61,990 nucleotides of DNA from a virus: the UHGV virus genome UHGV-0106586. One strand, 5' to 3'. Position numbers and translations under genes: made by a program. Positions 14,772-61,990 of the stretch are shown piece after piece. How positions within the stretch are numbered: the stretch's first letter is position 1; the number at the start of each line of letters is the position of its first letter. The notes under the pieces were generated by a model. It ran no database searches and was not told the DNA's origin. It worked only from the letters and a program-made list of their open reading frames with translations.

Positions 14772-14924
14772 TTTAACTTATCTCTCAACTCACAATAAGA
14801 GAGTCCTAAAAAGAACCCCAGTAAGACAGAACCTATGAACAGGCCAATGATGCTCTCTGCCATATCTAACATCCAATAAAAAGGTGATGTAAGCCTATCA
14901 AGACTCACACCACCTTGTCAAGTT

Positions 14925-34202: not shown

Positions 34203-34687
34203 CACTTCAAGACTACAAGGATAATTTTATTTATGACCCCGACAAAGGGGTCTTCTACAACAAGTATGACAGGAATAGGCAAGCTAAAGCTGGGCAGATT
34301 GCAGGAGGAAGTGATGCTTATGGTTACAAAGTACTTAAATTCAAAGATGTCGTAATAAAAGTTCATCACCTCGTTTGGTGGTTCGAGCATGGTTACAAGC
34401 CCACTAAGATGATAGACCACATTGATGGTAACAGAAGTAATAATCATATCTCTAATCTTAGGGAGACTGATAAGTATGGAAACGCCCAAAACAGAGTTAA
34501 GCAGACAGCTAACAAGTCAGGTTACAAGGGTGTGCATTATTTTAAAGACTGCAATAAATGGAGGGCTGCTATAACATGCAGAGGTAAAAGGACATCACTT
34601 GGCTTATTTGACACACCAGAAGAAGCCCATAAAGCTTACTGTGAAGCTGCTATTAAACTCCACGGAGAGTTTGCAAAACTAAGTTGA
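34184..34687 (+). CDS. HNH endonuclease with AP2 domain (free-standing, overlapping the 3' end of the polymerase gene)
   Basis: KVHHLVWWFEHGYKP...IDHIDGNRSNNHISNLRE plus AP2-like SGYKGVHYFKDCNKWRAAI...GLFDTPEEAHKAY. Confidence 0.75.
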   Translation: MVRRTLTLQDYKDNFIYDPDKGVFYNKYDRNRQAKAGQIAGGSDAYGYKVLKFKDVVIKVHHLVWWFEHGYKPTKMIDHIDGNRSNNHISNLRETDKYGNAQNRVKQTANKSGYKGVHYFKDCNKWRAAITCRGKRTSLGLFDTPEEAHKAYCEAAIKLHGEFAKLS

Positions 34688-45623: not shown

Positions 45624-51445
<5,822 letters not shown>

Positions 51446-51486
51446 TCATTTTTAACCAAGCCTTTGATATATAAGTATTTTCTCTG

Positions 51487-51556
51487 TTAAGCGTGAGCTA
51501 CGTAAAAAATAATTTTTGGTGGGTATATCTGTTCAGAAGATTTCACGTAGCATTCG
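51487..51556 (-). promoter_or_regulatory. conserved ~70-bp element upstream of gene 50615..51406 (copy 1 of 2)
   Basis: Shares blocks ttaagcgtg, tacgtaaa, gtgggtat, atttcacgtagca with 53631-53700. Confidence 0.4.
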
Positions 51557-51563
51557 ACTATTA

Positions 51564-53612
51564 TCAATCATCTTCTGGGAATGATGAACTTAATAGCGTA
51601 GCTTCTGCGTATTGGTCGTAGATATTACTGCTAAAGGTCATAAAGCTGGTTTCATCTGGTTTAATGGCAACTTCACCACCAAGTGAAACTTTCACAGGCT
51701 CCTGAATACGTTTGCTCAAAGCACTAATTTCATCTCTCAGGCTTTGGATATCCGTATTCGTTAATGCCGCATCTTGTCTCATGGTGATTAATTCTGGATG
51801 CTGGAAGTTAGCAAGATTCATAGCTGCACTATTAAACCAACCTTTCACATCGTCCATTGTAAATACTGGCTTAAGTCCAGACTCTTTAGCCAGCTCTGGT
51901 AATTTAGCTTGTGCTTCCATTCGTTCAGGTGTAGAGGCTAATCTTTCATAACCTGCATAGATAGCACTACCAGCTAATAGCATATTCCCAAGATTAAACC
52001 TTGATGGTTTCCCGTTCTTTCTATTCACGTTATCCGCTGTAGTATCAGCGACCTGACCTAATCTTGTGATAGCAGTCATAAGCCCGTAAATACTTCTGGT
52101 TACACCAACAACTTTATTTACAGCAATAACACCAGCCAAGACTTTTAAACTATTAATCAAGCCAGAACCTAAAGCATCAACAACTTTCTTTTGTTCATCG
52201 GTTAAACCACGATAAGCCAATGTCACCTCATCAAAGAACGCCCTTACCCTGTAACTAATATCAGTCAGGTTATCGACACCGTGTGACATAGAAGTCATGA
52301 GATTACCAAGACTTTCACCTAATGTTTTACCACTCCCACCAAGACTATTTAAAAGCGTTGTTAAGCTTCTTGTGAAATCTTGAAGACCATTTTCAGAACC
52401 TCTGAAGATATCCGTTAGTGAGTTGTTCCAAGTATTCTTTAAGTTCCCTAACATCGTCTGCGTAGAGTCCTGAATAGCTTTCCAGCCACCTCTGGAATTA
52501 ATCTGTGAACCAAGTTCTTTAGCAAACTTAGGGAGTGCATCAGAGGCTTTAACATCACCATTTTTCATCTTATCGAAAAGCTGTTTTTCAGTCAGACCTA
52601 AAGCCTTTGCAAATGCCTGAGTAGCACCCGGTAAAGCTTCAGATAGTTGCCCCTTAAGCTCTTCAGCCATCACCTGACCCTTAGAAGCCATCTGCGATAC
52701 TGCGGTTAATGCTCTTTGAATCTGCTCATCTGAACGACCCATTAAACGGGCATATCCAGTTAAGTTTTTAAATAATTCCTCTGAGCCTTCAAGACCCATC
52801 GTATTTTTTGCAGATGCACCAAATGAAGCAAACTGTGCTTGTGTTTCGGTTGTGTCCATACCAGTAATTTGAGTTAAATCTTGAATGAACTTTTTGACCT
52901 GTGTACTTTGGTCACCGAATACGAAATCAATACTTCTTTCCGATGATGCACGTTGAAGGCCAACTTCCATAATCTTCTGATAAGCGGATAGTACAGCCTG
53001 AAAGCTGATAAATGCACCTGCTGTTTTAACTGCTGCTGAACTCAAACTATCAAGACTATTAGCTGCTCTGTCACCGTTAATGCTGGTGGATGTATGACCT
53101 TTAGCTTTAGCAATTGCTTCTCTGACTGAAGCATTTAACTGAGCCAGCTTCTCATTGAATTTTGAATTATCCATCTGACCAGCTTTAGCAGATAGCCCGT
53201 AAAACTGAGATTTGATGTATTTCTGCAAAACAGGGTCAAAGCCCTTTAACTTGCTCATATTCGCTGAGTAAGCTGCTGTGATTGCTCTGTTTCCGCTAAT
53301 TCGTGGCTGTCTTGGTTGTTTTGGAGGATTAATAGCGTCATTAACCTGACTTGTGAAACGGAAAGCTTTTGTGCTTCTTGCTCTCTGTTCAATCTTGTCA
53401 AAAGCCTTATTAAACTTCCTTTCAAGTTGCCCTAAAGAACTTGTCAAATTACTATCAAGCTGTTTTGTATTAATCCTGAAACCTTTATTTAGGTTCTTTT
53501 CAATTCTTTGTGCTGACTGCAAAGCTGCCTTTTCAACTCTTTGCAAGCCTTTAACAACGTTTTCACTGAAGCCTAATTCAACGATAAAACTATCAACTGT
53601 AAATTTGCTCAT
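51564..53612 (-). CDS. tail tape measure protein
   Basis: 682 aa, alpha-helical low-complexity composition, TMP-like core QVMAEELKGQLSEALPGA, position upstream of baseplate genes. Confidence 0.7.
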   Translation of the reverse strand: MSKFTVDSFIVELGFSENVVKGLQRVEKAALQSAQRIEKNLNKGFRINTKQLDSNLTSSLGQLERKFNKAFDKIEQRARSTKAFRFTSQVNDAINPPKQPRQPRISGNRAITAAYSANMSKLKGFDPVLQKYIKSQFYGLSAKAGQMDNSKFNEKLAQLNASVREAIAKAKGHTSTSINGDRAANSLDSLSSAAVKTAGAFISFQAVLSAYQKIMEVGLQRASSERSIDFVFGDQSTQVKKFIQDLTQITGMDTTETQAQFASFGASAKNTMGLEGSEELFKNLTGYARLMGRSDEQIQRALTAVSQMASKGQVMAEELKGQLSEALPGATQAFAKALGLTEKQLFDKMKNGDVKASDALPKFAKELGSQINSRGGWKAIQDSTQTMLGNLKNTWNNSLTDIFRGSENGLQDFTRSLTTLLNSLGGSGKTLGESLGNLMTSMSHGVDNLTDISYRVRAFFDEVTLAYRGLTDEQKKVVDALGSGLINSLKVLAGVIAVNKVVGVTRSIYGLMTAITRLGQVADTTADNVNRKNGKPSRFNLGNMLLAGSAIYAGYERLASTPERMEAQAKLPELAKESGLKPVFTMDDVKGWFNSAAMNLANFQHPELITMRQDAALTNTDIQSLRDEISALSKRIQEPVKVSLGGEVAIKPDETSFMTFSSNIYDQYAEATLLSSSFPEDD

Positions 53613-53630
53613 TGTTCATATTTCACCTCT

Positions 53631-53700
53631 TTAAGCGTGTTGTACGTAAATTCTATTTTTCAGTGTGGGTATTAGCTTTACAGATTTCACGTAGCACACA
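53631..53700 (-). promoter_or_regulatory. conserved ~70-bp element upstream of the tape measure gene (copy 2 of 2)
   Basis: Same conserved blocks as 51487-51556 in the same order and spacing. Confidence 0.4.
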
Positions 53701-53770
53701 TACAAAAAAGGGAGAAACTACCGATGTCACTCGATAATCTCTCCCGTAGATTTTTACCCAACCAATCTTT

Positions 53771-53974
53771 TTACCCAACCAGATAATAATTGCCATCTTC
53801 ACCAACAATCTGACAATCACTTGGTAATTTATCAAGACACCATTTAGCGATTCTTCTGATTCTGTTATTTTGCTTAGAGGTGGATGATTTGATTCGTTTT
53901 GGTTTGTTGGGTTGTTCTTTCAGTCGTTCACTAATTGCCTTGATGAGTTCATAGCGTTCTGTTAAATCAATCAT
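53771..53974 (-). CDS. hypothetical protein (67 aa), N-terminus paralogous to the next ORF
   Basis: MIDLTERYELIK vs MNDLTERDKRIK. Confidence 0.3.
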   Translation of the reverse strand: MIDLTERYELIKAISERLKEQPNKPKRIKSSTSKQNNRIRRIAKWCLDKLPSDCQIVGEDGNYYLVG

Positions 53975-53999
53975 TCACCACCTCCTTTTTAATTCGATT

Positions 54000-54308
54000 T
54001 TAATCTAAGTAGTGTATACACTCGACACCGCGTTCATTCTTTTGAATTTCATAACGTAGTGAAAGACCAGTTTGATAATACACAGTATCAAGCTTATTTA
54101 TCTTATCCTTGAGTTCGATAAGAAGTCGCGTTAAATCATCCCGACCATCACACTTTAGTTCGGCAAGAGGCTTTTCGTCCATACGACCAATAAGATATTC
54201 AGTGACCTCCTGAATATCACCAAGAGTCGTTTTAATTTCATTGAACCTATCTTCAAAAGGTTCCATCACCCCTTTAATTCTTTTATCACGTTCTGTTAAA
54301 TCATTCAT
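54000..54308 (-). CDS. hypothetical protein (102 aa)
   Basis: ORF in track. Confidence 0.4.
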   Translation of the reverse strand: MNDLTERDKRIKGVMEPFEDRFNEIKTTLGDIQEVTEYLIGRMDEKPLAELKCDGRDDLTRLLIELKDKINKLDTVYYQTGLSLRYEIQKNERGVECIHYLD

Positions 54309-54316
54309 TAATCACC

Positions 54317-55027
54317 TCAAATAGCCTTTGCATATTTCTGAGAAATCTTCATTAACTGCTCAATATCGGCTTGCATAGCAATCTTCTTCTGTGATTCATA
54401 TTCACTAACAAGTTCTTTCATAGCCTGAAGCTCTCTTGAGAGATACAACTTAACATTTTCAAGTTGCTTGTTACGTGATGCCAAGATGTTCTGTCTAGCA
54501 AGTTCACAGAGTTCTTCATCGCTCTTATTAGTCATATAAATAAATTGACCAGCACCCCTTGAAGCTTTAACCATCTTCACAATTCGATATCCGTCAGGAA
54601 GATTATTAATCACGTCTGGGATATTCTCAGGAAAAGTACCAAAACCATCATTATCTTCGTATTGGTAATAGACAAATGGTTTCTGTGACAATTCATCCTG
54701 AATCTCAAATTCTGACGGCTCAATAGCTGATTGCATCAGGGTAACTTTGCTGTAAGCGTCATCAAGTTTAATACGCTGTGCTTTTAACTGTGGGTAATAT
54801 TCACGCTCAAGATTAAATAGTGCTTCACTTTTGCAGATATCTGGCATTTCTTGAGGCTCAGGAGACACAAAGGTAATTTCCTTTGGTGACATCTTTAACG
54901 ATTGCTCAAGCTTAATTCTTTCATCGTGTTCTTTACGCTGAATAGTGATAGCTGGATGTTCAGTCTGTGGCGACCAGTCACCGAAGCTATCAACCTTTCT
55001 GCCATTAATGTAAATATCATTTGTCAT
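54317..55027 (-). CDS. hypothetical protein (236 aa)
   Basis: ORF with ATG and GAGGAAAT RBS. Confidence 0.45.
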   Translation of the reverse strand: MTNDIYINGRKVDSFGDWSPQTEHPAITIQRKEHDERIKLEQSLKMSPKEITFVSPEPQEMPDICKSEALFNLEREYYPQLKAQRIKLDDAYSKVTLMQSAIEPSEFEIQDELSQKPFVYYQYEDNDGFGTFPENIPDVINNLPDGYRIVKMVKASRGAGQFIYMTNKSDEELCELARQNILASRNKQLENVKLYLSRELQAMKELVSEYESQKKIAMQADIEQLMKISQKYAKAI

Positions 55028-55553
55028 TATAATTTCCTCTAAGTGTGATTATTTCTTAATAGAGCACCTTCAACGCCAATACACTTAGAAGATGACTTAA
55101 CGATTTATTAAAGATGCTCTATAAAGAAAAGCCCTAAACATAGGTTCATCCTCATCTGTGAAGGGCTTTGGAGGTTTGCTTTAACGTTAACGAAGTTTCA
55201 GGAAAAAGTTCTGTTTGAAAACTCTTAAAGAAACGCCCTAACTCATGATTAGGGCAAAGCTGTAAAGGGTTCAATGAATGAATGATTAAGCACTTTTTGA
55301 GATAGCCTATCTAGTGTGGGCTAAATAGGCCATGACGAAAAGCATTGCACCTTTCCAACTCAGAATATAGTTATCATCGATGTAGAGACGATTAATATTT
55401 TAATTCAAGGAGAATTGCTCTCCCTATATATACAATTATGTCATGCTCAAGGTTATTTGTCAACAGCTTTTTAACAGATTGGTAACATTTATACTTTAAT
55501 AGATGCACCTGCAATCATACCAATCAATACAAAACAGATAATCACCAATTCCA

Positions 55554-55877
55554 TTAATGCACCACCTTCGAATCCGTCACCAAAATATTGTCAGCGTACA
55601 AAATTGCTATAGCTGCCTTGAGATATCTTTCAGGGCTAATACTGTATTTGTTCGTTTGCTCGATAACCAATCTTTTCATGTTGCTGTCTATAATTGGTAG
55701 CATCATTCGAGGCTCGTTAAACTCCACCGACTGAATAAAGTCTTCAATTACTTCTGAGTTATCAGCCATTAGCCTTAACAGCCTGTCAAAGTCAATGCTA
55801 ACACCTACATCAGTGAAAGCCTGAATCATCATAGCGGTGTCGTTATCAACGAAAATCTGTAATGGGTAATTGTTCAT
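55554..55877 (-). CDS. hypothetical protein (107 aa from ATG 55877)
   Basis: ATG with AAAGGAGA RBS. Confidence 0.45.
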   Translation of the reverse strand: MNNYPLQIFVDNDTAMMIQAFTDVGVSIDFDRLLRLMADNSEVIEDFIQSVEFNEPRMMLPIIDSNMKRLVIEQTNKYSISPERYLKAAIAILYADNILVTDSKVVH

Positions 55878-56032
55878 TTTTAAAATCTCCTTTTTACCAG
55901 ACCTCCTCAATCGCTCTGTAACGAGCTAAACAGTCTTTTTCAGGGGTAGCCTGTACAGTGGTATTACCCACCCTAAAATAAGATAGTTTTTTGCGTTAGA
56001 ATGCGATTGAGAGCGCCTGAGAAGCTATTTTT

Positions 56033-56320
56033 CTAATTTCTCTTAAAGTCTCGGACTTGCATAAGATTTTTTGGTCTGGTATCGGCTCTGTTACCATTTC
56101 GATGGATAATTTGCTTGTTGGATTGATAGCCATGATAAAGGAACCAGACAACATATTTCACGTAGAAAGTATATCGGCCTATATTAAATGTTTTGTTGCC
56201 GTAGTCGTCGGTATTTATCGTGACTGACTCTCCATCAGACCAGCACAGGGAATCACTGGATTCATCATAGATAAGGTGTTCTGTAAAATATCGTCTAACA
56301 TCTTCATGCCAAGGTTTCAT
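56033..56320 (-). CDS. truncated/degenerate HNH-like protein (N-terminal HNH region only, no AP2 domain)
   Basis: LIYDESSDSLCW...FYVKYVVWFLYHGYQ...IIHRNGNRADTRPKNL parallels the N-terminal halves of the intact HNH-AP2 proteins but with substituted catalytic positions. Confidence 0.4.
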   Translation of the reverse strand: MKPWHEDVRRYFTEHLIYDESSDSLCWSDGESVTINTDDYGNKTFNIGRYTFYVKYVVWFLYHGYQSNKQIIHRNGNRADTRPKNLMQVRDFKRN

Positions 56321-56532
56321 AAAACCTCCTCACCCCAATAACCTAATTCAATCTTGTGACGCTCAAACCATTCCGGTTTAACTGCTGTTTTCAGTACTTC
56401 ATTTGGGCCAATGGCTTTAATGAAAATATCTTTTGAGTTATGGATGTCACCGAATCCGTTTCCCTTAATCAGGAGGTCGGAGATGTGGCGAATCATTTTA
56501 TCCGTGTGGTATTCAAAGGTAACGCATAGCAT
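56317..56532 (-). CDS. hypothetical protein (71 aa)
   Basis: ORF in track. Confidence 0.35.
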   Translation of the reverse strand: MLCVTFEYHTDKMIRHISDLLIKGNGFGDIHNSKDIFIKAIGPNEVLKTAVKPEWFERHKIELGYWGEEVL

Positions 56533-56810
56533 TAAACCTCCATCGCTAACTTGTGAATCTTAAGACTCAATAGACGGGCAATATCAATCTTAAAGCCGTT
56601 AAGTGCCTTCAAAGTATCTAAAGCGTCCTGAGTAATTCGGATGTGCTTACGACCTTTAGAGACTGGATATTTAAGTAAATCCGACTCAGTGACCTCTTTA
56701 GCAATTGCAAGCTGCATTACAGTTTGATGAGGCAAGTTAGTAGCTCGTTTAATTCTGGTAAGCTCGTTAAAAGCTTCCTCTGAAATACGGGTTAATGTGT
56801 GTTTATTCAT
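56532..56810 (-). CDS. hypothetical protein (92 aa)
   Basis: ORF in track. Confidence 0.4.
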   Translation of the reverse strand: MNKHTLTRISEEAFNELTRIKRATNLPHQTVMQLAIAKEVTESDLLKYPVSKGRKHIRITQDALDTLKALNGFKIDIARLLSLKIHKLAMEV

Positions 56811-57368
56811 TTAAAATTCCTCTGTAACTAAATACGGGTCAAACTCGAAATCTGGTTGCTCGTTTTCCATTGGCTCAATATTCCCAACGGCAATATGATG
56901 TTCAACAATACCAATTAGCTTTGCACACATTACAGCAAGCAAAGCGCAATATTTATCGCTTGGTAATTCATGGCTAAGTCTGGTTGCTTGTCTTTGAAGA
57001 TAATTTGTCACGCTGGCTGCGTTAATTTCGTCAAGATTCTTTAGAAGATAAAATAGTTTTTTGTTGTATTTCGGGTGGCCTTCACTTCTACAGAATCCAA
57101 TGAAAATATCATCAAGCTTACTTGGTAGTTGCTCGTAAGAATCAAAGTTAGCCAGATAATTTTTAATAGTGTTCTGGGTGCTCTTTCTGGTTGGCATAAA
57201 TCTGTCTCGTGGCGTAATGCTACGAATTACTTCGTCAATGCCTTTGCGTTCTTTCTTGGTGAGCTTGGGTAGTTCGTAGCTGGTTGGGTTGTTTGTGTAA
57301 GCGTAGGAGTTGTGCTTGTTACGTTGTCTCGATGCCTGAAGCATCGCTCTAAATTCTGCGTCTCTCAT
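56811..57368 (-). CDS. hypothetical protein (185 aa)
   Basis: ORF in track; first gene of a minus-strand operon. Confidence 0.45.
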   Translation of the reverse strand: MRDAEFRAMLQASRQRNKHNSYAYTNNPTSYELPKLTKKERKGIDEVIRSITPRDRFMPTRKSTQNTIKNYLANFDSYEQLPSKLDDIFIGFCRSEGHPKYNKKLFYLLKNLDEINAASVTNYLQRQATRLSHELPSDKYCALLAVMCAKLIGIVEHHIAVGNIEPMENEQPDFEFDPYLVTEEF

Positions 57369-57419
57369 TCATGTTCCGACCCTCATAAGATGTTATTATT
57401 CTGTTAACTTATATATACA

Positions 57420-57448
57420 ATACTAGCATTTTCAAAGACTAATGTCAA
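57420..57448 (-). promoter_or_regulatory. sigma70-like promoter for minus-strand operon 57368..55554 (-35 TTGACA, 17-bp spacer, -10 TAGTAT)
   Basis: Read from reverse complement of 57420-57448. Confidence 0.35.
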
Positions 57449-57473
57449 GTATTTTTTAACATTTTATTAACAT

Positions 57474-57486
57474 CTGTGGTATAATG
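57474..57486 (+). promoter_or_regulatory. extended -10 promoter-like element (TGGTATAAT), plus strand
   Basis: TGnTATAAT seen at 57478-57486; no good -35. Confidence 0.35.
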
Positions 57487-57612
57487 GTTCTATGGGGAGA
57501 GTAAAATATAAAGGCGTGGCTATGAGGTTTATTCGATAGGGGTTGGTACAAGCCCAACTAACCGAATCAACTATGTATGTCACATGGTATTGCATTGCAC
57601 ACAGGAAATTTA

Positions 57613-57789
57613 ATGGTAAATCTCCCTCCTGAACTGGGGTCACCTGATGTATGGGCTGGTGGAGGTATCGGGCTGATTGCAGGTCTGTTACTCCGCTACG
57701 TCCTCGTCAGAGTGCTTGTTGTCTTTAAACTGTTCGGTCGTACATGGACGCTTGACCTTAAGGATAATGACCACACGGACCCCCGTTAA
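57613..57789 (+). CDS. small single-pass membrane protein candidate (58 aa), more GC-rich than surroundings
   Basis: AGGAAA RBS then ATG; GGGIGLIAGLLLRYVLVRVLVVF hydrophobic helix. Confidence 0.3.
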   Translation: MVNLPPELGSPDVWAGGGIGLIAGLLLRYVLVRVLVVFKLFGRTWTLDLKDNDHTDPR

Positions 57790-58840
57790 ACCCCCTTCAA
57801 AACCCCTATACCATCTCGTACAGGGGTATCTTTAGCATTTTGTGCTATCTATTAAAAAATAGCTTGACAGAACCAGAAAGCTGTATCTATCAAGTATTCA
57901 CCTCTCTGACAGTGATTTCTAAAAGTTCTTATTTTTCAATAAGTTGTAATTAGCCATATATAGTAGCTGTTCAGCACCTTCACAGATGACTTCAAGCCTT
58001 CTTAGCTATCCACTAAGCGGGAGAAGAGCGATAACCCCAGAGAGGGAAGCTCCCTTCTAATTGGTATTGTTATGAGGATGCTTCATCCGAATCATCTACC
58101 AATCCCTAAACCGACTTTCTTAACCAGCCCTTTACGTTATTCGTTCACAGTGTTGATAAGTGGTTTTGCCCTCTGTTTCTGTTATCATCGGGCTTACCTT
58201 ATCAGGGCTTTGAAATGCCCTGTAACTCCCCTCTTAACGGGAGAGAAAGAACATAGTGACCCCAAGCGAAGCGCCCCTCTAAAAAGATTTTTTAGCTACT
58301 TTGTTTAAAAGCACATCAAACGATACATTTTATTGATTTAGGTCAAAGACAAAAGCATTGACAAAATGGTAAGATTGTTCACATGACCTTACTTAACAGA
58401 TTCTTAAGAGCTTTGAAACAGCCTGTCTAACAAGGTCACTACCTCTGGTCTTATCGTTCCCTCTCTTCTTGGTAGTTCTGTTAAGTATTTTTCAGTTTTA
58501 TTCTTAAGATAATTGTTAAGATAGAACCTACCTTCGGTTTCATGGTTCTCTTCCTCCCGTTAAACAATTCTTCCTAACTATCTACATAATCACTACCAAG
58601 AATCTTACAAGGTAATATCCAGACCTCTTATAGTTGACCTGATACAGAAACATTACAGACATGCTCTCTAGGTTCTGTGTAGTTCCCTTGTTGGGAATAG
58701 ATGCTCCTACAATAAGAGCATCATTAATCTATATACTCCTCTTCCGAGAACTTAATGTTTTTTTAATGTATATCAATCATTATCCAAAATATGATATGAA
58801 GTTTCTTGGTAGTATTACATCAACAAGTTAATTGAAATAA

Positions 58841-59284
58841 GGAATATTATTTAGAAATGGTGTAAAAATCGAGGGTTCACTTGTAAATCCTAAACCAAGA
58901 CAATACCTGGCTTTTGGTTGTCGGATTAATGGTAAGTTCAGAATACTTAAGGTGCATCAGGTTATTTTCTATCTATATCATGGTAAACAAGCTAAACTAT
59001 AGATTGACCATATAGATGGTGACCCGCTAAATAATGCTATTAGCAATCTTCGCGAGGTTACCAAAGAGCAGAATCAGGCAAACATGATACCCAGAAAGAA
59101 AACAAAATCAGGTTACAAGGGGGTACACCCAAGAGTGGATAACAAGGGGTTCTGGGCTACAATACGCTGTAATGGAAAATCTCATTATCTGGGTCAGTTT
59201 AATACAGCAGAAGAAGCTGCAAAAGCCTATGATGCTGCATCACTGGAATTGCATGGTGAATATGGACACAGGAATTTTAGCTGA
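58841..59284 (+). pseudogene. HNH-AP2 homing endonuclease pseudogene: no start codon for the N-terminal part, in-frame TAG at 59000-59002, AP2-domain remnant retained as ORF 59084..59284
   Basis: Hand translation ...VHQVIFYLYHGKQAKL*IDHIDGDPLNNAISNLRE...SGYKGVHPRVDNKGFWATIRCNGKSHYLGQFNTAEEAAKAY parallels the intact copy at 34184..34687. Confidence 0.6.
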
Positions 59285-60237
59285 TAGTTAATAAAGACCT
59301 GACATAAACTTGTCGATAGGTCTGATTAAAGTTTATACAGTGATTTTTCATCTTCTAATTTTTTTATAAAAATCGTAGTAGCCTCTCTACATTCCCCTTC
59401 ACCGATAATCTTCAAAAATATCTACACAGTTGATTCGGTAGAATCTACCTCATGATTGATGGCTGTTAAGTACCCCAGATTCACGATATAGCACCCCCTT
59501 TGCAAAAGCAGTTAAAATATCTATAACCAATTATTGACTTTCTTTATAGCATCTGTTAACTCCACATCAAGAAACCTTTATCACACTTCAAAGCATCTAT
59601 CAAGAAGATTTCACCTATCAATAGATGTAACATTTTATAGTTCTGTGAAGTCCTATCCAGTTTTCTCTGTAACAGACACAAACTTCTGTGACCTTATGTA
59701 TCAATGACTTACAAGACATGCTCTCAAGGTGCTGTATAGCCTCTTATCTTCAAATACACAAAACCCTTATAAATCAGTACTGATACGTATACAGTTCGTT
59801 TTTAACATAATAGCTGTTTTACGCACTAATCGTGTTCTACATGAAATCTGTATAGATATTAAGGTGTCTGTAAGTGATTTTTTAAGAGGAGCTACGAAGA
59901 ACTATAACCATCACCTCCTAACTTTCACATGGGAAACTGTTAAGCAGCTTGATAGTCACTTTGAGGGAATATTGATAGTGACCAACTGCATAGATAGCGT
60001 TATATAGTCCTGTATATAGCACTTTTCTAGGAGTCGAGAGAGGGACGACTAACACGATACAGTTTACCCTGAAAAGAGACTTCACAGATTCTTTATATAT
60101 TTCAATAAGTTATGCTAAAAAGGGACTATATCAATACTGCATAGAATCTGTGTAAAACTGCTTAGATAGTGCATAAATACACCGTTGAATTGCATAATCA
60201 TTCACTGATATTGTCCTGTTATTAACAGGTATGTTCT

Positions 60238-60316
60238 CATAGTTGATTCGGATGTTCTAGGAATCATCCTCATAGTTGATTCGGATGTTCTAGGAATCAT
60301 CCTCATAGTTGATTTA
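60238..60316. repeat. 33-bp tandem direct repeat (catagttgattcggatgttctaggaatcatcct), 2.4 copies, with internal dyad symmetry; ~85 bp upstream of the recombinase-like gene
   Basis: Copies at 60238-60270, 60271-60303 and a partial copy at 60304-60316; related sequence at 59429-59464. Confidence 0.7.
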
Positions 60317-60399
60317 GACCTTGATGATTTTTATTAGACACGTTTAAATACACTACCTAAAGCGATACAATCTAGGTATCAGTTTTGAGGTGGTAAACA

Positions 60400-61659
60400 A
60401 TGAAACGTGTCATTTCATACATTCGTTTCTCATCAGAGAAGCAAGCTAAAGGCGACTCACTCCGCAGACAATCTAAGATGGTCACTGATTGGCTTAAGGC
60501 TCATCCTGAGTACTACCTTGACCAAGATTTATCTTTTCGTGATTTAGGTGTGAGTGGATTCACTGGTAAGCACTTGAAAGGTGGCTTAGGTGACTTCTTA
60601 ACCGCTATCGAGAAAGGGCTTGTTAAAGCTGGTATCAAAGTTTCTAAACGTTGTCCTGCATGGCTTAAGCTTAATGATGACCGTAAAAGCTTCTCTGTGA
60701 TACCTGAGAAAGTGGAGACTGTGAAGAGGTGCTTTCAGCTACGGTTAGAGGGTAAGTCTATCTGGGAGATTGTCAGAACTCTTAATGCTGAAGGTCACCA
60801 GACGCTTAACCAGTACAAAGCAGGTAAGTTTGGTCAAACATCTGTTCAAGACCTTTTGAAGAATCGCTCTGTAATTGGTTACTTCACACCTAAAGGCTGT
60901 GAGGAGATTGCAGGTTATTACCCGTCTGTAATTGATGAAACAACATTCTACAAAGTTCAACAACTATCACATTCTCGTTACGGTAGAAAACCTGCTTCAG
61001 ATAAACCATTGAGTGTGAATCTCTTTAAAGGTGTTATCCGTTGTTCTGAATGTGGTCATGCTTTGATTATCACAGGCTTTAGCGATACAAGAAACGGGAT
61101 TTATCGTTGTCCTCTTCGTAATGAAAACCGTTGTAGTGCTAAAGGACTTTCACGTAAGCAAACCGATGGTACATTGCTTGCCCTGCTATCTCGTCTTGAC
61201 CGATTTGATAGCGATATGACGAATACCATAGACACACTGAAGCTACACCGTGAACACATCTCAAGCAATATTGAAAAGCTGGTACAGCTATCACTTGAAA
61301 TTGAAGACTTGTCCGCTATTACCAGCAAACTAAGACAACTAAAGAATGAGCTATCACAAGTTGATGCGGATATCGAGAAGGAGACACAACGCCTTAAATC
61401 TATTGATGTGGGTTGTTTGTCTGATTGTGACTTGACTACAAAGGCGGGAAGGATTGAAGCACAACTGATAATCAAAAGTGCTGTTAAAGAGGTCGTTTTA
61501 AATACTGCTAAACGTCGCTGTAAAGTAACTTTTCACAACGGTAAAGCAATCACCTTACCAATAACAGAAAACCCCTCAGACAACGTTACAGAGGCTATAC
61601 AGTCGCTTTCTGAAGTCACTGAGAGGGGTTTAATAGATGTTGATGAGGTTATCATATAG
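60400..61659 (+). CDS. serine-recombinase-like protein (resolvase-type N-terminal motifs, recombinase domain, zinc ribbon) with apparently truncated catalytic domain
   Basis: YIRFSSEKQ and DLGVSG motifs; recombinase-domain-like middle; CSECGH...YRCPLRNENRC zinc ribbon; no DRLxR-type motif found by eye. Confidence 0.6.
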   Translation: MKRVISYIRFSSEKQAKGDSLRRQSKMVTDWLKAHPEYYLDQDLSFRDLGVSGFTGKHLKGGLGDFLTAIEKGLVKAGIKVSKRCPAWLKLNDDRKSFSVIPEKVETVKRCFQLRLEGKSIWEIVRTLNAEGHQTLNQYKAGKFGQTSVQDLLKNRSVIGYFTPKGCEEIAGYYPSVIDETTFYKVQQLSHSRYGRKPASDKPLSVNLFKGVIRCSECGHALIITGFSDTRNGIYRCPLRNENRCSAKGLSRKQTDGTLLALLSRLDRFDSDMTNTIDTLKLHREHISSNIEKLVQLSLEIEDLSAITSKLRQLKNELSQVDADIEKETQRLKSIDVGCLSDCDLTTKAGRIEAQLIIKSAVKEVVLNTAKRRCKVTFHNGKAITLPITENPSDNVTEAIQSLSEVTERGLIDVDEVII

Positions 61660-61673
61660 TTGAGATTCTATCG

Positions 61674-61990
61674 TCAGTAGCGCTTGTTAGGATTCACAGA
61701 AAGCTTCTTCAAAGTACTACCTGTACCAGCATTATTAAGCACCTTTGAAGCTTGCTCATTAGCGGCATCTGAGAAGGTGCTTTTTCCGTTCTCAACTTTG
61801 ACACTTCTACCACAATTGATACGGGCTTGAAGTTGCTCATTAGTAAGTTCACTCGTAGAGCGATTATATAGCTCCTGACACATCAACATACCGTTACCTA
61901 AGCTTGTTGTAGTGTTCCCTGTATTCTTCTTAGAAGTAGCACCACCGTCATTTGTAGTAGAAGTCTTTCCAGTGGCTGCTGAAATATCAG
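61674..61990 (-). CDS. partial CDS (3' portion; 5' end lies beyond the window) paralogous to tail gene 50615..51406
   Basis: Open frame runs to the window edge; 61891-61990 is ~88% identical to 50850-50949 (last ~60 nt identical); C-terminus ...LSVNPNKRY vs ...[11 protein letters not shown]. Confidence 0.5.

What the first reader, a model, noticed from the sequence alone, without database searches (positions are those of the whole stretch)
60400..61659. Serine-recombinase-like protein with apparently incomplete catalytic domain in a lytic-looking phage
The protein begins with resolvase-type motifs (YIRFSSEKQ, DLGVSG) and has a recombinase-domain-like middle and a zinc ribbon, but by eye the segment that normally carries the conserved Asp/Arg catalytic residues and the E-helix is missing (it runs almost directly from DLGVSG...GLVKAG into the recombinase-domain-like region). 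It may be an inactive recombinase repurposed as a DNA-binding regulator, or a compact active variant acting on the adjacent repeats.
Basis: partly seen in the sequence, partly recalled or inferred. Interest (0 to 1): 0.6.

Follow-up and report, generated by a model that had tools for sequence, protein, structure and literature searches.

The report
Broken serine integrase beside intact attP
This gene is an ordinary large serine integrase from an 11-kb E. coli chromosomal island that recently lost 88 codons, the core of its catalytic domain, by a slip between two 10-base repeats, so it is almost certainly a dead enzyme and not a new compact recombinase.

Summary
ORF 60400-61659 (419 aa) has only the first 63 of 145 positions of the resolvase catalytic domain. 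An intact recombinase domain, zinc ribbon and coiled coil follow directly.

It is not a new compact family. It is a 264-nt in-frame deletion allele of a 507-aa integrase found in about 290 of 5426 complete E. coli genomes, where it sits at the left end of an ~11-kb island inserted in yecE. The deletion lies between two copies of TAAAGCTGGT. It removes the D-R-x-x-R motif and the E-helix. The allele has no private substitutions, so the deletion is recent.

A conventional attP lies 70 bp upstream, with core TGATTTT at 60325-60331. Its matching attB is intact in yecE of 5139 genomes.

The "lytic phage" context is uncertain. The window is a complete metaSPAdes contig. Its last 55 nt repeat 50895-50949, so 50895-61935 forms a closed 11,041-bp cycle joined to a Felixounavirus stem through a shared Dit-like gene. 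This may be a homologous-recombination cointegrate or two molecules joined by the assembler.

The gene is most likely a relic. Residual att-site binding cannot be excluded. The island's repeated exchange with virulent Felix-like phages is the more interesting lead.

The parts
60400..61659 (+). Deletion allele (419 aa) of a 507-aa large serine integrase
   Evidence: ORF list; Pfam; alignment to 507-aa relatives; the exact protein is on 10 metagenome contigs
60409..60621 (+). Remnant of the catalytic domain (aa 4-74). It keeps the equivalents of Tn3 resolvase Y6/R8/S10 (Y7, R9, S11) and D48. The model confidence here is moderate to low.
   Evidence: PF00239 positions 1-63/145; invariant columns; pLDDT 46-86 over residues 1-80
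60624..60633 (+). Deletion junction: the single retained copy of the 10-nt direct repeat TAAAGCTGGT. Full-length alleles carry two copies 264 nt apart.
   Evidence: Junction comparison; the repeat is present in 5 of 6 full-length alleles
60703..60966 (+). Recombinase domain (RD), intact
   Evidence: PF07508 at 2.5e-14; pLDDT 83-94; fold match to 4KIS
61021..61404 (+). Zinc ribbon with four invariant Cys (C215, C218, C237, C245), with the inserted coiled coil (helices at about aa 252-335)
   Evidence: PF13408; invariant Cys; predicted helices; A118 integrase alignment
60306..60355 (.). attP. The 7-bp stretch shared with attL, attR and attB is TGATTTT at 60325-60331. The likely central dinucleotide is TT at 60330-60331. 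The flanking arms form an imperfect inverted repeat (15 of 24 positions).
   Evidence: attL/attP/attR alignment; symmetry scan; the reconstructed attB is contiguous in yecE in 5139 of 5426 genomes
60343..60371 (+). Sigma-70-like promoter match (TTTAAA-17-TACAAT) between the attP core and the start codon
   Evidence: Consensus scan only, and no more matches than in shuffled sequence
60236..60314 (.). 33-nt tandem repeat, 2.4 copies, abutting the left arm of attP. Each unit starts with the same CTCATAGTTGATT as the outer left arm of attP.
   Evidence: TRF; 1 unit in chromosomal island L014, 2 in the window and L006, 3 in L005 and L007
50895..61935 (.). 11,041-bp closed cycle in the assembly graph. 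It is the yecE island in its circular (attP) arrangement: Dit-like 5' part, TMP, eight small ORFs, HNH-AP2 remnant, attP, integrase, Dit-like 3' part.
   Evidence: Collinearity with the islands in L001 and L010; the terminal 55-mer equals an internal 55-mer
61936..61990 (.). Last 55 nt of the contig, identical to 50895-50949. Its length equals the likely final k of the metaSPAdes assembly (55, my inference).
   Evidence: contig name NODE_478_length_61990
50615..51406 (-). Dit-like gene 'copy A', a hybrid. Its 3' part (50618-50826) is 94% identical to virulent phage CRP22. From 50950 onward it is 100% identical to the island lineage seen in another sample (L005).
   Evidence: Segment identities; this exact 263-aa protein is found only on this contig
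61674..61990 (-). Dit-like gene 'copy B', 3' part only, island type. It runs off the end of the contig.
58841..59284 (+). Remnant of an HNH-AP2 homing-endonuclease-like gene. An 89-nt deletion between 10-nt near-repeats (junction 58841-58850) removed its 5' end.
   Evidence: AP2 domain; the intact gene in L010 encodes 174 aa

Best explanation
The ORF is a recently crippled copy of a conventional large serine integrase. The parent is a 507-aa enzyme that inserts an ~11-kb, low-GC, phage-derived island (integrase, Dit-like protein, tape-measure protein, small ORFs) into E. coli yecE. It does so by attP x attB recombination at a TGATTTT core. In this lineage, replication slippage or illegitimate recombination between two TAAAGCTGGT repeats removed 264 nt. 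The loss covers beta3 through the E-helix of the catalytic domain, including the D-R-x-x-R motif. The product keeps the serine nucleophile and the att-site-binding domains (RD, zinc ribbon, coiled coil). It cannot assemble an active site or the E-helix dimer/tetramer interface. It therefore cannot cut or exchange DNA. Shown here: the deletion, its mechanism signature, the lost residues, attP and attB, and the parent family. Inferred: loss of activity, and that the gene is now a relic. The likely reason it is tolerated is that this copy of the island no longer needs to integrate. It is seen only in the attP arrangement, always together with one Felixounavirus lineage. Most probably (about 0.6) it is carried inside that phage genome as a homologous-recombination cointegrate through the shared Dit-like gene.
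For: Domain truncation against the full domain in relatives. A clean 88-aa gap at 93-94% identity. Ten-nt direct repeats at exactly 264-nt spacing in 5 of 6 full-length alleles, with one copy at the junction. Thirteen family-invariant residues are lost. In Tn3 resolvase, mutating R68 or R71 greatly reduces cleavage and recombination (PMC2794168). Matching the deleted D87-R88-x-x-R91 motif to those residues is my assignment from the motif pattern, not a residue-level alignment. There are no private substitutions against six full-length alleles, so the event is recent. attP, attL and attR were aligned, and attB is intact in 5139 of 5426 genomes. The full-length gene sits at yecE in every chromosomal copy examined. 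None of the highest-ranked matches among 5426 complete E. coli genomes shows the contiguous deletion junction. The 419-aa protein occurs only in metagenome sources. A second microhomology deletion disrupts the HNH-AP2 gene in the same lineage. The island cycle is attached to a Felixounavirus stem. The same stem and cycle break at matching points in other assemblies.
Against: The deletion is in frame and the ORF stays open. By chance that has a probability of about 1 in 3, and it is favoured here because the repeat encodes K-A-G in both places. The identical protein occurs in at least three metagenome data sets, so the lineage persists. RD, zinc ribbon and coiled coil are predicted with high confidence and match the DNA-bound A118 integrase C-terminal fragment, so att-site binding may survive. 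No activity was measured. The physical link to the phage rests on one metaSPAdes contig.
Confidence: 0.75

Rival explanations
1. The truncated protein is kept because it still binds att sites. It could act as an autoregulator at attP, which lies just upstream of its own gene. Or it could act as a decoy or dominant-negative that blocks the full-length integrase of resident yecE islands. For a phage that carries it, this could prevent island excision or integration during infection.
For: Intact RD, zinc ribbon and coiled coil. [quoted passage not shown] The ORF is in frame and identical in several data sets. About 5% of complete E. coli genomes carry a full-length island that could be a target.
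Against: There are no private substitutions, so there is no sign of selection since the deletion. No diverged relatives share the architecture: all close and distant homologues listed with a resolvase domain are about 480-670 aa. Another gene in the same lineage is decaying by the same kind of deletion. Without the E-helix the protein loses the main dimer interface, which should weaken full-site binding (my knowledge of serine recombinases, not tested here).
Confidence: 0.2
2. It is a compact but active serine recombinase that acts on the adjacent repeats (60238-60316, 59429-59464).
For: It keeps the Y-x-R-x-S nucleophile motif and D48. Repeats lie nearby.
Against: It lacks the D-R-x-x-R motif and the whole E-helix, including 13 family-invariant residues. 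In Tn3 resolvase, R68 and R71 are needed for catalysis. The remaining 75 residues are half of the alpha/beta fold and are modelled with low to moderate confidence. The allele is a recent one-off derivative of a full-length gene. The true crossover site is attP at 60325-60331, not the repeats.
Confidence: 0.02
3. The short gene or its setting is an assembly artefact. Either the deletion is a collapse, or the phage-island join is a chimera of two separate molecules: a Felixounavirus and a free circular island.
For: The contig ends in a 55-nt exact copy of 50895-50949, a stem-plus-loop graph shape. The hybrid 263-aa Dit protein at the join exists on no other contig. MEGAHIT assemblies give the stem (L019) and the cycle (L005) as separate contigs that break inside the shared stretch.
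Against: For the deletion: four assemblers give the same junction, and the repeat is only 10 nt. For the join: a cointegrate predicts the same graph. metaSPAdes did thread stem, shared stretch and island. A circle with a dead integrase and no recognisable replication gene would struggle to persist on its own. In the window's sample the island copy of the 55-mer has been converted to the phage type, whereas L005 and L007 differ there at 4 positions. That implies the two recombine.
Confidence: 0.4

Closest known systems
507-aa 'recombinase family protein' at the left end of the E. coli yecE island (e.g. WP_001685055.1 in strain JML285; clusters P0001 and P0002)
   Same: 93-94% protein identity outside the gap. 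Same RD, zinc ribbon, coiled coil and C-terminal tail. Same attP arm sequence next to the gene. Same neighbours, Dit-like protein then TMP.
   Different: The window copy lacks aa 79-166. It is seen only in the attP arrangement and only in metagenomes.
Listeria phage A118 / L. innocua prophage integrase C-terminal fragment bound to an attP half-site (PDB 4KIS)
   Same: Best structural match of the model (Foldseek E = 4e-11) and a sequence match over aa 152-366. Like that crystallisation construct, the window protein is essentially RD, zinc ribbon and coiled coil without a working catalytic domain.
   Different: 4KIS is a laboratory truncation. About 15% identity. The window protein still carries 75 N-terminal residues of the catalytic domain.
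YbcK-type recombinases of lambdoid phages and the DLP12 prophage
   Same: Closest relatives in the phage collection: 33% identity over 96% of the query, with the same domain order.
   Different: They are full length (about 496 codons are spanned in the record). The match splits into two pieces around the gap. Their genomic setting differs: they lie inside lambdoid genomes and are not next to an attP at a yecE island.
SPbeta integrase (deposited as 'Resolvase homolog YokA'), phiC31 and Bxb1 large serine integrases
   Same: The family profile matches the SPbeta integrase at 5e-28 and phiC31 integrase across the V-x-R-F-S-R plus E-helix segment. They share the attP x attB logic with a short core.
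   Different: The segment that aligns to phiC31 residues 98-175 is exactly the part deleted in the window protein.
Tn3 / gamma-delta resolvase catalytic core
   Same: Y7, R9, S11 and D48 follow the pattern of Y6, R8, S10 and D36 (my assignment from the motifs). The parent's D87-R88-x-x-R91 follows D67-R68-x-x-R71.
   Different: The R68 and R71 equivalents and the E-helix are absent. Mutation of R68 or R71 alone greatly reduces cleavage (PMC2794168).

Membership tests
Large serine recombinase / integrase | Complete N-terminal catalytic domain: serine nucleophile, conserved Arg/Asp residues and the E-helix | tested here: not met
   PF00239 positions 1-63 of 145 only, against 1-144 in the parent. 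Thirteen invariant residues, including D87, R88 and R91, are deleted.
Large serine recombinase / integrase | Recombinase domain (PF07508) | tested here: met
   E = 2.5e-14 over aa 102-189; pLDDT 83-94
Large serine recombinase / integrase | Zinc ribbon domain with four Cys and an inserted coiled coil | tested here: met
   PF13408 over aa 208-262; C215, C218, C237 and C245 invariant; long helices 252-335; 4KIS is the top fold match
Large serine recombinase / integrase | Cognate attP next to the gene and an attB in the host, sharing only a short core | tested here: met
   7-bp shared core TGATTTT at 60325-60331 with imperfect inverted arms. The attB rebuilt from attL and attR is contiguous at 100% identity in yecE of the listed genomes and covers at least 80% of the query in 5139 of 5426.
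Large serine recombinase / integrase | Catalyses attP x attB recombination | not testable with these tools
   Needs an in vivo or in vitro assay. Loss of activity is predicted from the residues lost.
Small serine resolvase / invertase (PHROG 125, 'DNA invertase') | Full catalytic domain followed by a short C-terminal helix-turn-helix | tested here: not met
   Only a weak N-terminal match (E = 4.7e-4, aa 1-73). The C-terminal part is RD and zinc ribbon, not HTH.
Gene of a Felixounavirus genome | Physically contiguous with the phage backbone on both sides, and present in related phages | tested here: inconclusive
   No related gene in any Felixounavirus record; the best phage hits are lambdoid at 33%. 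Joined to the backbone on one side only, through a shared Dit stretch. The other side ends in the 55-nt repeat.
Phage satellite (P4-like, PICI, cfPICI, PLE) | Integrase plus helper-dependent excision, replication and packaging functions | not tested
   The island has an integrase and Felix-like Dit and TMP homologues, but no recognisable replication or packaging genes and no PADLOC defence match of note. Its behaviour on infection is unknown.

The most novel reading that the evidence does not exclude
A virulent Felixounavirus lineage stably carries an 11-kb E. coli yecE island, which entered by homologous recombination through the Dit-like tail gene. The island is itself a hitchhiker or satellite of Felix-like phages. 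The in-frame dead integrase is retained as an att-site-binding decoy that interferes with resident copies of the island. This would be a phage-island arms race played with a disabled recombinase.
Probability: 0.1. Interest if true: 0.7.

Novelty: new member of a known kind. Interest (0 to 1): 0.35.

Why it matters
For the recombinase itself it matters little. It is a textbook case of gene decay by microhomology deletion, and it warns against reading a truncated domain as a new compact enzyme.

The setting is more useful. A common E. coli island at yecE, present in about 5% of complete genomes, has Felixounavirus-like base composition. It carries homologues of the phage's distal tail and tape-measure proteins. 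It shares near-identical stretches and short noncoding motifs with strictly virulent Felix-like phages. In gut metagenomes it turns up in circular form together with such a phage. I found no description of this island in the literature searched. If a virulent phage used in typing and therapy can pick up or mobilise a chromosomal island, that bears on phage safety and on how satellites arise.

Tried and rejected
- A single-sequence phmmer search of the parent's catalytic domain against PDB found nothing. A family profile was needed.
- An exact search for the deletion junction in IMG/VR viral contigs gave 0 hits.
- The plasmid collection had no match to 58000-61990, so this is not a known plasmid.
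- The E. coli complete genomes had no match to the Felix core 26000-50800. The idea that the island is the visible end of a complete Felix-like prophage in sequenced strains is therefore rejected.
- Literature searches for the island (yecE with prophage; Felixounavirus with satellite; satellite with tape measure and serine recombinase) returned only Stx-phage integration at yecE and unrelated work.
- Pfam, PHROG, NCBIfam and PADLOC scans of the eight small island ORFs gave only an HNH hit.
- I tried to judge selection from lineage-specific substitutions. There are none, so dN/dS cannot be applied.
- I tried to settle cointegrate against two molecules from contig break points. Both models predict the same graph.

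Full report
**1.

ORF 60400..61659 (+) encodes 419 aa. Pfam finds three domains:
- Resolvase PF00239, restricted to aa 4-74, which is profile positions 1-63 of 145.
- Recombinase PF07508 at aa 102-189.
- Zn_ribbon_recom PF13408 at aa 208-262.

PHROGs files the protein under the integrase family phrog_95. The only solved relatives by sequence are C-terminal fragments of the A118-type integrase. An AlphaFold model built with 28 homologues gives high confidence for the recombinase domain, zinc ribbon and coiled coil. Confidence is only moderate to low for the first 80 residues. The model's best structural match is the DNA-bound C-terminal fragment 4KIS.

**2. What it is**

A search of 5.8 billion proteins found no family of short relatives. 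The nearest proteins are 507-aa E. coli "recombinase family proteins" at 93-94% identity. More distant hits that carry a resolvase domain are about 480-670 aa.

The alignment shows one clean 88-residue gap. The window protein runs ...EKGLVKAG|IKVSKRCPAW..., whereas the relatives have KAG-DTLLIESLDRLSRQ...(E-helix)...KKEAAKAG-IKVSKR. The parent covers the whole Pfam catalytic domain, aa 4-164 for profile positions 1-144.

At the DNA level the full-length alleles carry TAAAGCTGGT twice, exactly 264 nt apart. The window has one copy, at 60624-60633, with the flanks joined. This is the signature of a microhomology-mediated deletion by slippage or illegitimate recombination. It is in frame because both repeat copies encode K-A-G.

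**3. What was lost**

In a 28-sequence family alignment, 13 invariant residues fall inside the gap: L81, E84, D87, R88, S90, R91, V112, L114, E144, S145, K148, R151 and W156. The family profile aligns this segment to phiC31 integrase residues 98-175, the V-x-R-F-S-R motif plus the E-helix.

D87-R88-x-x-R91 has the pattern of D67-R68-x-x-R71 in Tn3 resolvase. This is my assignment from the motif, not a residue-level alignment. In Tn3 resolvase, mutation of Y6, R8, S10, D36, R68 or R71 greatly reduces cleavage and recombination (PMC2794168).

The window protein keeps Y7, R9, S11 and D48. It lacks the two arginines and the E-helix. From established knowledge of serine recombinases, the E-helix forms the dimer and tetramer interfaces. 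I therefore infer the protein is catalytically dead. This was not measured.

**4. A conventional attP and attB**

About 290-300 of 5426 complete E. coli genomes carry the full-length gene. In all seven chromosomal copies examined it lies at the left end of an ~11-kb insert that splits yecE, a DUF72 gene. The insert contains the integrase, a Dit-like "baseplate" protein, a tape-measure protein, about eight small ORFs including an HNH, and then either HNH-AP2 or a Dam methylase.

Window 50848-61990 is collinear with a circular permutation of this island. The right end of the island (AP2 remnant, 59084-59284) is joined to the left end (integrase), which is the excised attP arrangement.

Aligning attL, attP and attR gives a 7-bp shared core, TGATTTT, at 60325-60331. 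The flanks form an imperfect inverted repeat, 15 of 24 positions, around TT at 60330-60331. The attB rebuilt from the outer halves of attL and attR is contiguous in yecE of 5139 of 5426 genomes, at 100% identity in those listed.

The parent is therefore an ordinary integrase with an identifiable attP.

- The 33-nt array (60236-60314) abuts the left arm of attP and shares its outer 13 nt. It has 1 copy in a chromosomal island, 2 here and 3 in other samples.
- Region 59429-59464 belongs to a patch that is conserved with a noncoding region of Felixounavirus.

**5. How old and how widespread**

Every base of the window gene outside the gap is found in at least one of only six full-length alleles. 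There are no private substitutions. The deletion is therefore recent, and selection since the event cannot be assessed.

The exact 419-aa protein is on 10 contigs: ENA ERZ1304109, ERZ920430 and Logan ERR1190806, ERZ1303766, and JGI 3300029816. All are in the attP arrangement. The protein is known only from metagenome sources, not from isolate genomes. Some of the ENA assemblies may be re-assemblies of the same runs, so I count at least three independent data sets.

Among the E. coli complete genomes, the highest-ranked matches to the junction region were all split over 445 nt, which is the full-length gene.

The same lineage carries a second microhomology deletion. It removed 89 nt, with its junction at 58841-58850, and took out the 5' end of the HNH-AP2 gene. 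That looks like decay rather than design.

**6. Is the gene in a lytic phage?**

Window 1-51383 is a Felixounavirus, about 94% identical to virulent E. coli phages. However, the window is a complete metaSPAdes contig, NODE_478_length_61990. Its last 55 nt (61936-61990) are identical to 50895-50949. I take 55 to be the final k of that assembly; this is my inference from the 55-nt overlap. So 50895-61935 is a closed 11,041-bp cycle, the island, attached to a 50.9-kb phage stem.

The attachment lies inside a Dit-like tail gene. Segment identities are as follows:

| Segment | Compared with | Identity |
|---|---|---|
| 50618-50826 | phage CRP22 | 94% |
| 50618-50826 | the island's Dit gene | ~50% |
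| 50950-51069 and 51232-51460 | the island lineage in another sample (L005) | 100% |
| 50950-51069 | known Felix phages | 86-88% |

The hybrid 263-aa Dit protein is found on no other contig.

MEGAHIT assemblies give the two parts as separate contigs. L019 (62,259 nt) is the phage stem and is 100% identical to the window over 4773 nt. L005 (11,008 nt) is the cycle. Each stops 127 nt into the shared stretch, which begins at 50943. The metaSPAdes fragment L007 stops 55 nt into the same stretch.

Two structures give this same graph:
- A cointegrate: gp41, Dit, island, integrase, Dit, phage TMP and onward. It would arise by a single homologous crossover.
- A phage plus a free island circle that share the Dit stretch.

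I favour the cointegrate, at about 0.6, for four reasons:
- metaSPAdes threaded the stem into the island.
- A circle with a dead integrase and no recognisable replication gene has no obvious way to persist across samples.
- In each of the three assemblies where this end could be examined (the window, L005, L007), the island contig ends by merging into a shared Dit stretch.
- In the window's sample the island copy of the 55-mer has been converted to the phage type. It differs at four positions in L005 and L007.

Reads are needed to settle this.

No complete E. coli genome contains the Felix core, and no Felixounavirus record contains a related recombinase.

**7. Most likely working**

The 419-aa product cannot recombine DNA. 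It is most probably a relic, tolerated because this copy of the island is propagated without integration. The C-terminal domains of serine integrases bind attP half-sites on their own (PMC3783163; 4KIS). Residual binding to attP or to the yecE sites, and hence autoregulation or interference with resident full-length integrases, therefore remains possible. I put that at about 0.2. A compact active enzyme is very unlikely, at about 0.02.

**8. Comparison and novelty**

The protein fails the defining catalytic-domain test for a functional large serine recombinase. It meets the tests for the recombinase domain, the zinc ribbon and the att sites. I file it as a defective allele of a known kind, not as a new kind.

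The surrounding biology is the more interesting and, as far as my searches show, undescribed part:
- The yecE island has Felix-like GC content of 36-40%.
- Its tape-measure protein is 31% identical to the Felix one.
- A stretch of its Dit gene is 99.4% identical to that of a virulent phage.
- Two short noncoding patches are shared with Felixounavirus.

Noticed in passing
window 50895-61935; 61936-61990 equals 50895-50949: The contig is a stem plus a closed 11,041-bp loop: the last 55 nt repeat an internal 55-mer. Eight copies of the loop would total 88.3 kb, close to a Felixounavirus genome length. This may be coincidence.
   Followed up: partly
window 50615-51406 and 61674-61990; L010 8207-8980; L002 22652-23449: The Dit-like tail gene is a mosaic between virulent Felix-like phages and the chromosomal yecE island. 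The island copy in strain Ecol_517 is 99.4% identical to phage CRP22 over 162 nt but about 50% identical in the 3' third. This implies repeated recombination between a chromosomal island and strictly virulent phages.
   Followed up: partly
window 59412-59527 and 58428-58462; L015 579-692 and 937-971: Two short noncoding patches of the island match the ~1.2-kb gene-free region near the start of many Felixounavirus records. One has a 45-nt core at 93% identity and the other is 35 nt at 94%. Their function is unknown; a promoter, origin or packaging signal are possibilities. That region of the phage is not on this contig.
   Followed up: partly
window 57559-60287: The motif CATAGTTGATTCGG occurs five times (up to 3 mismatches, both strands) in the 3-kb gene-poor part of the island, against 0.16 expected. 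Two of the five copies lie in the 33-nt tandem array next to attP.
   Followed up: partly
window 58841-59284: The HNH-AP2 homing-endonuclease-like gene (174 aa in chromosomal islands) has lost 89 nt between 10-nt near-repeats. This leaves a 66-aa AP2-only ORF.
   Followed up: yes
window 57909-57991; L006 5-183; L001 around 14899-14911: An ~83-95-nt unit is present once here, twice in chromosomal islands and three times in the JGI contig. It is another length-variable tandem repeat, and assemblies break at it.
   Followed up: no
window 51564-57368: The island encodes a 682-aa tape-measure protein that is 31% identical to the Felix one, plus eight small ORFs (67-236 aa). Apart from one HNH hit, these have no match in Pfam, PHROGs, NCBIfam or PADLOC. 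This exact TMP sequence is indexed in 1583 blocks of the assembly collection.
   Followed up: partly
L016 18701-20798; L014 21715-22377; L001 2977-4205 and 5904-8206: The chromosomal islands vary at the right end. Some carry a Dam methylase and a 191-aa small resolvase instead of HNH-AP2. In strain EC45, IS2 sits in the integrase gene and an IS21-family element sits next to the Dit gene.
   Followed up: no
window 34298-34675: The Felixounavirus part carries its own HNH-AP2-type homing-endonuclease-like gene, 48% identical to the island's AP2 remnant over 60 aa.
   Followed up: no
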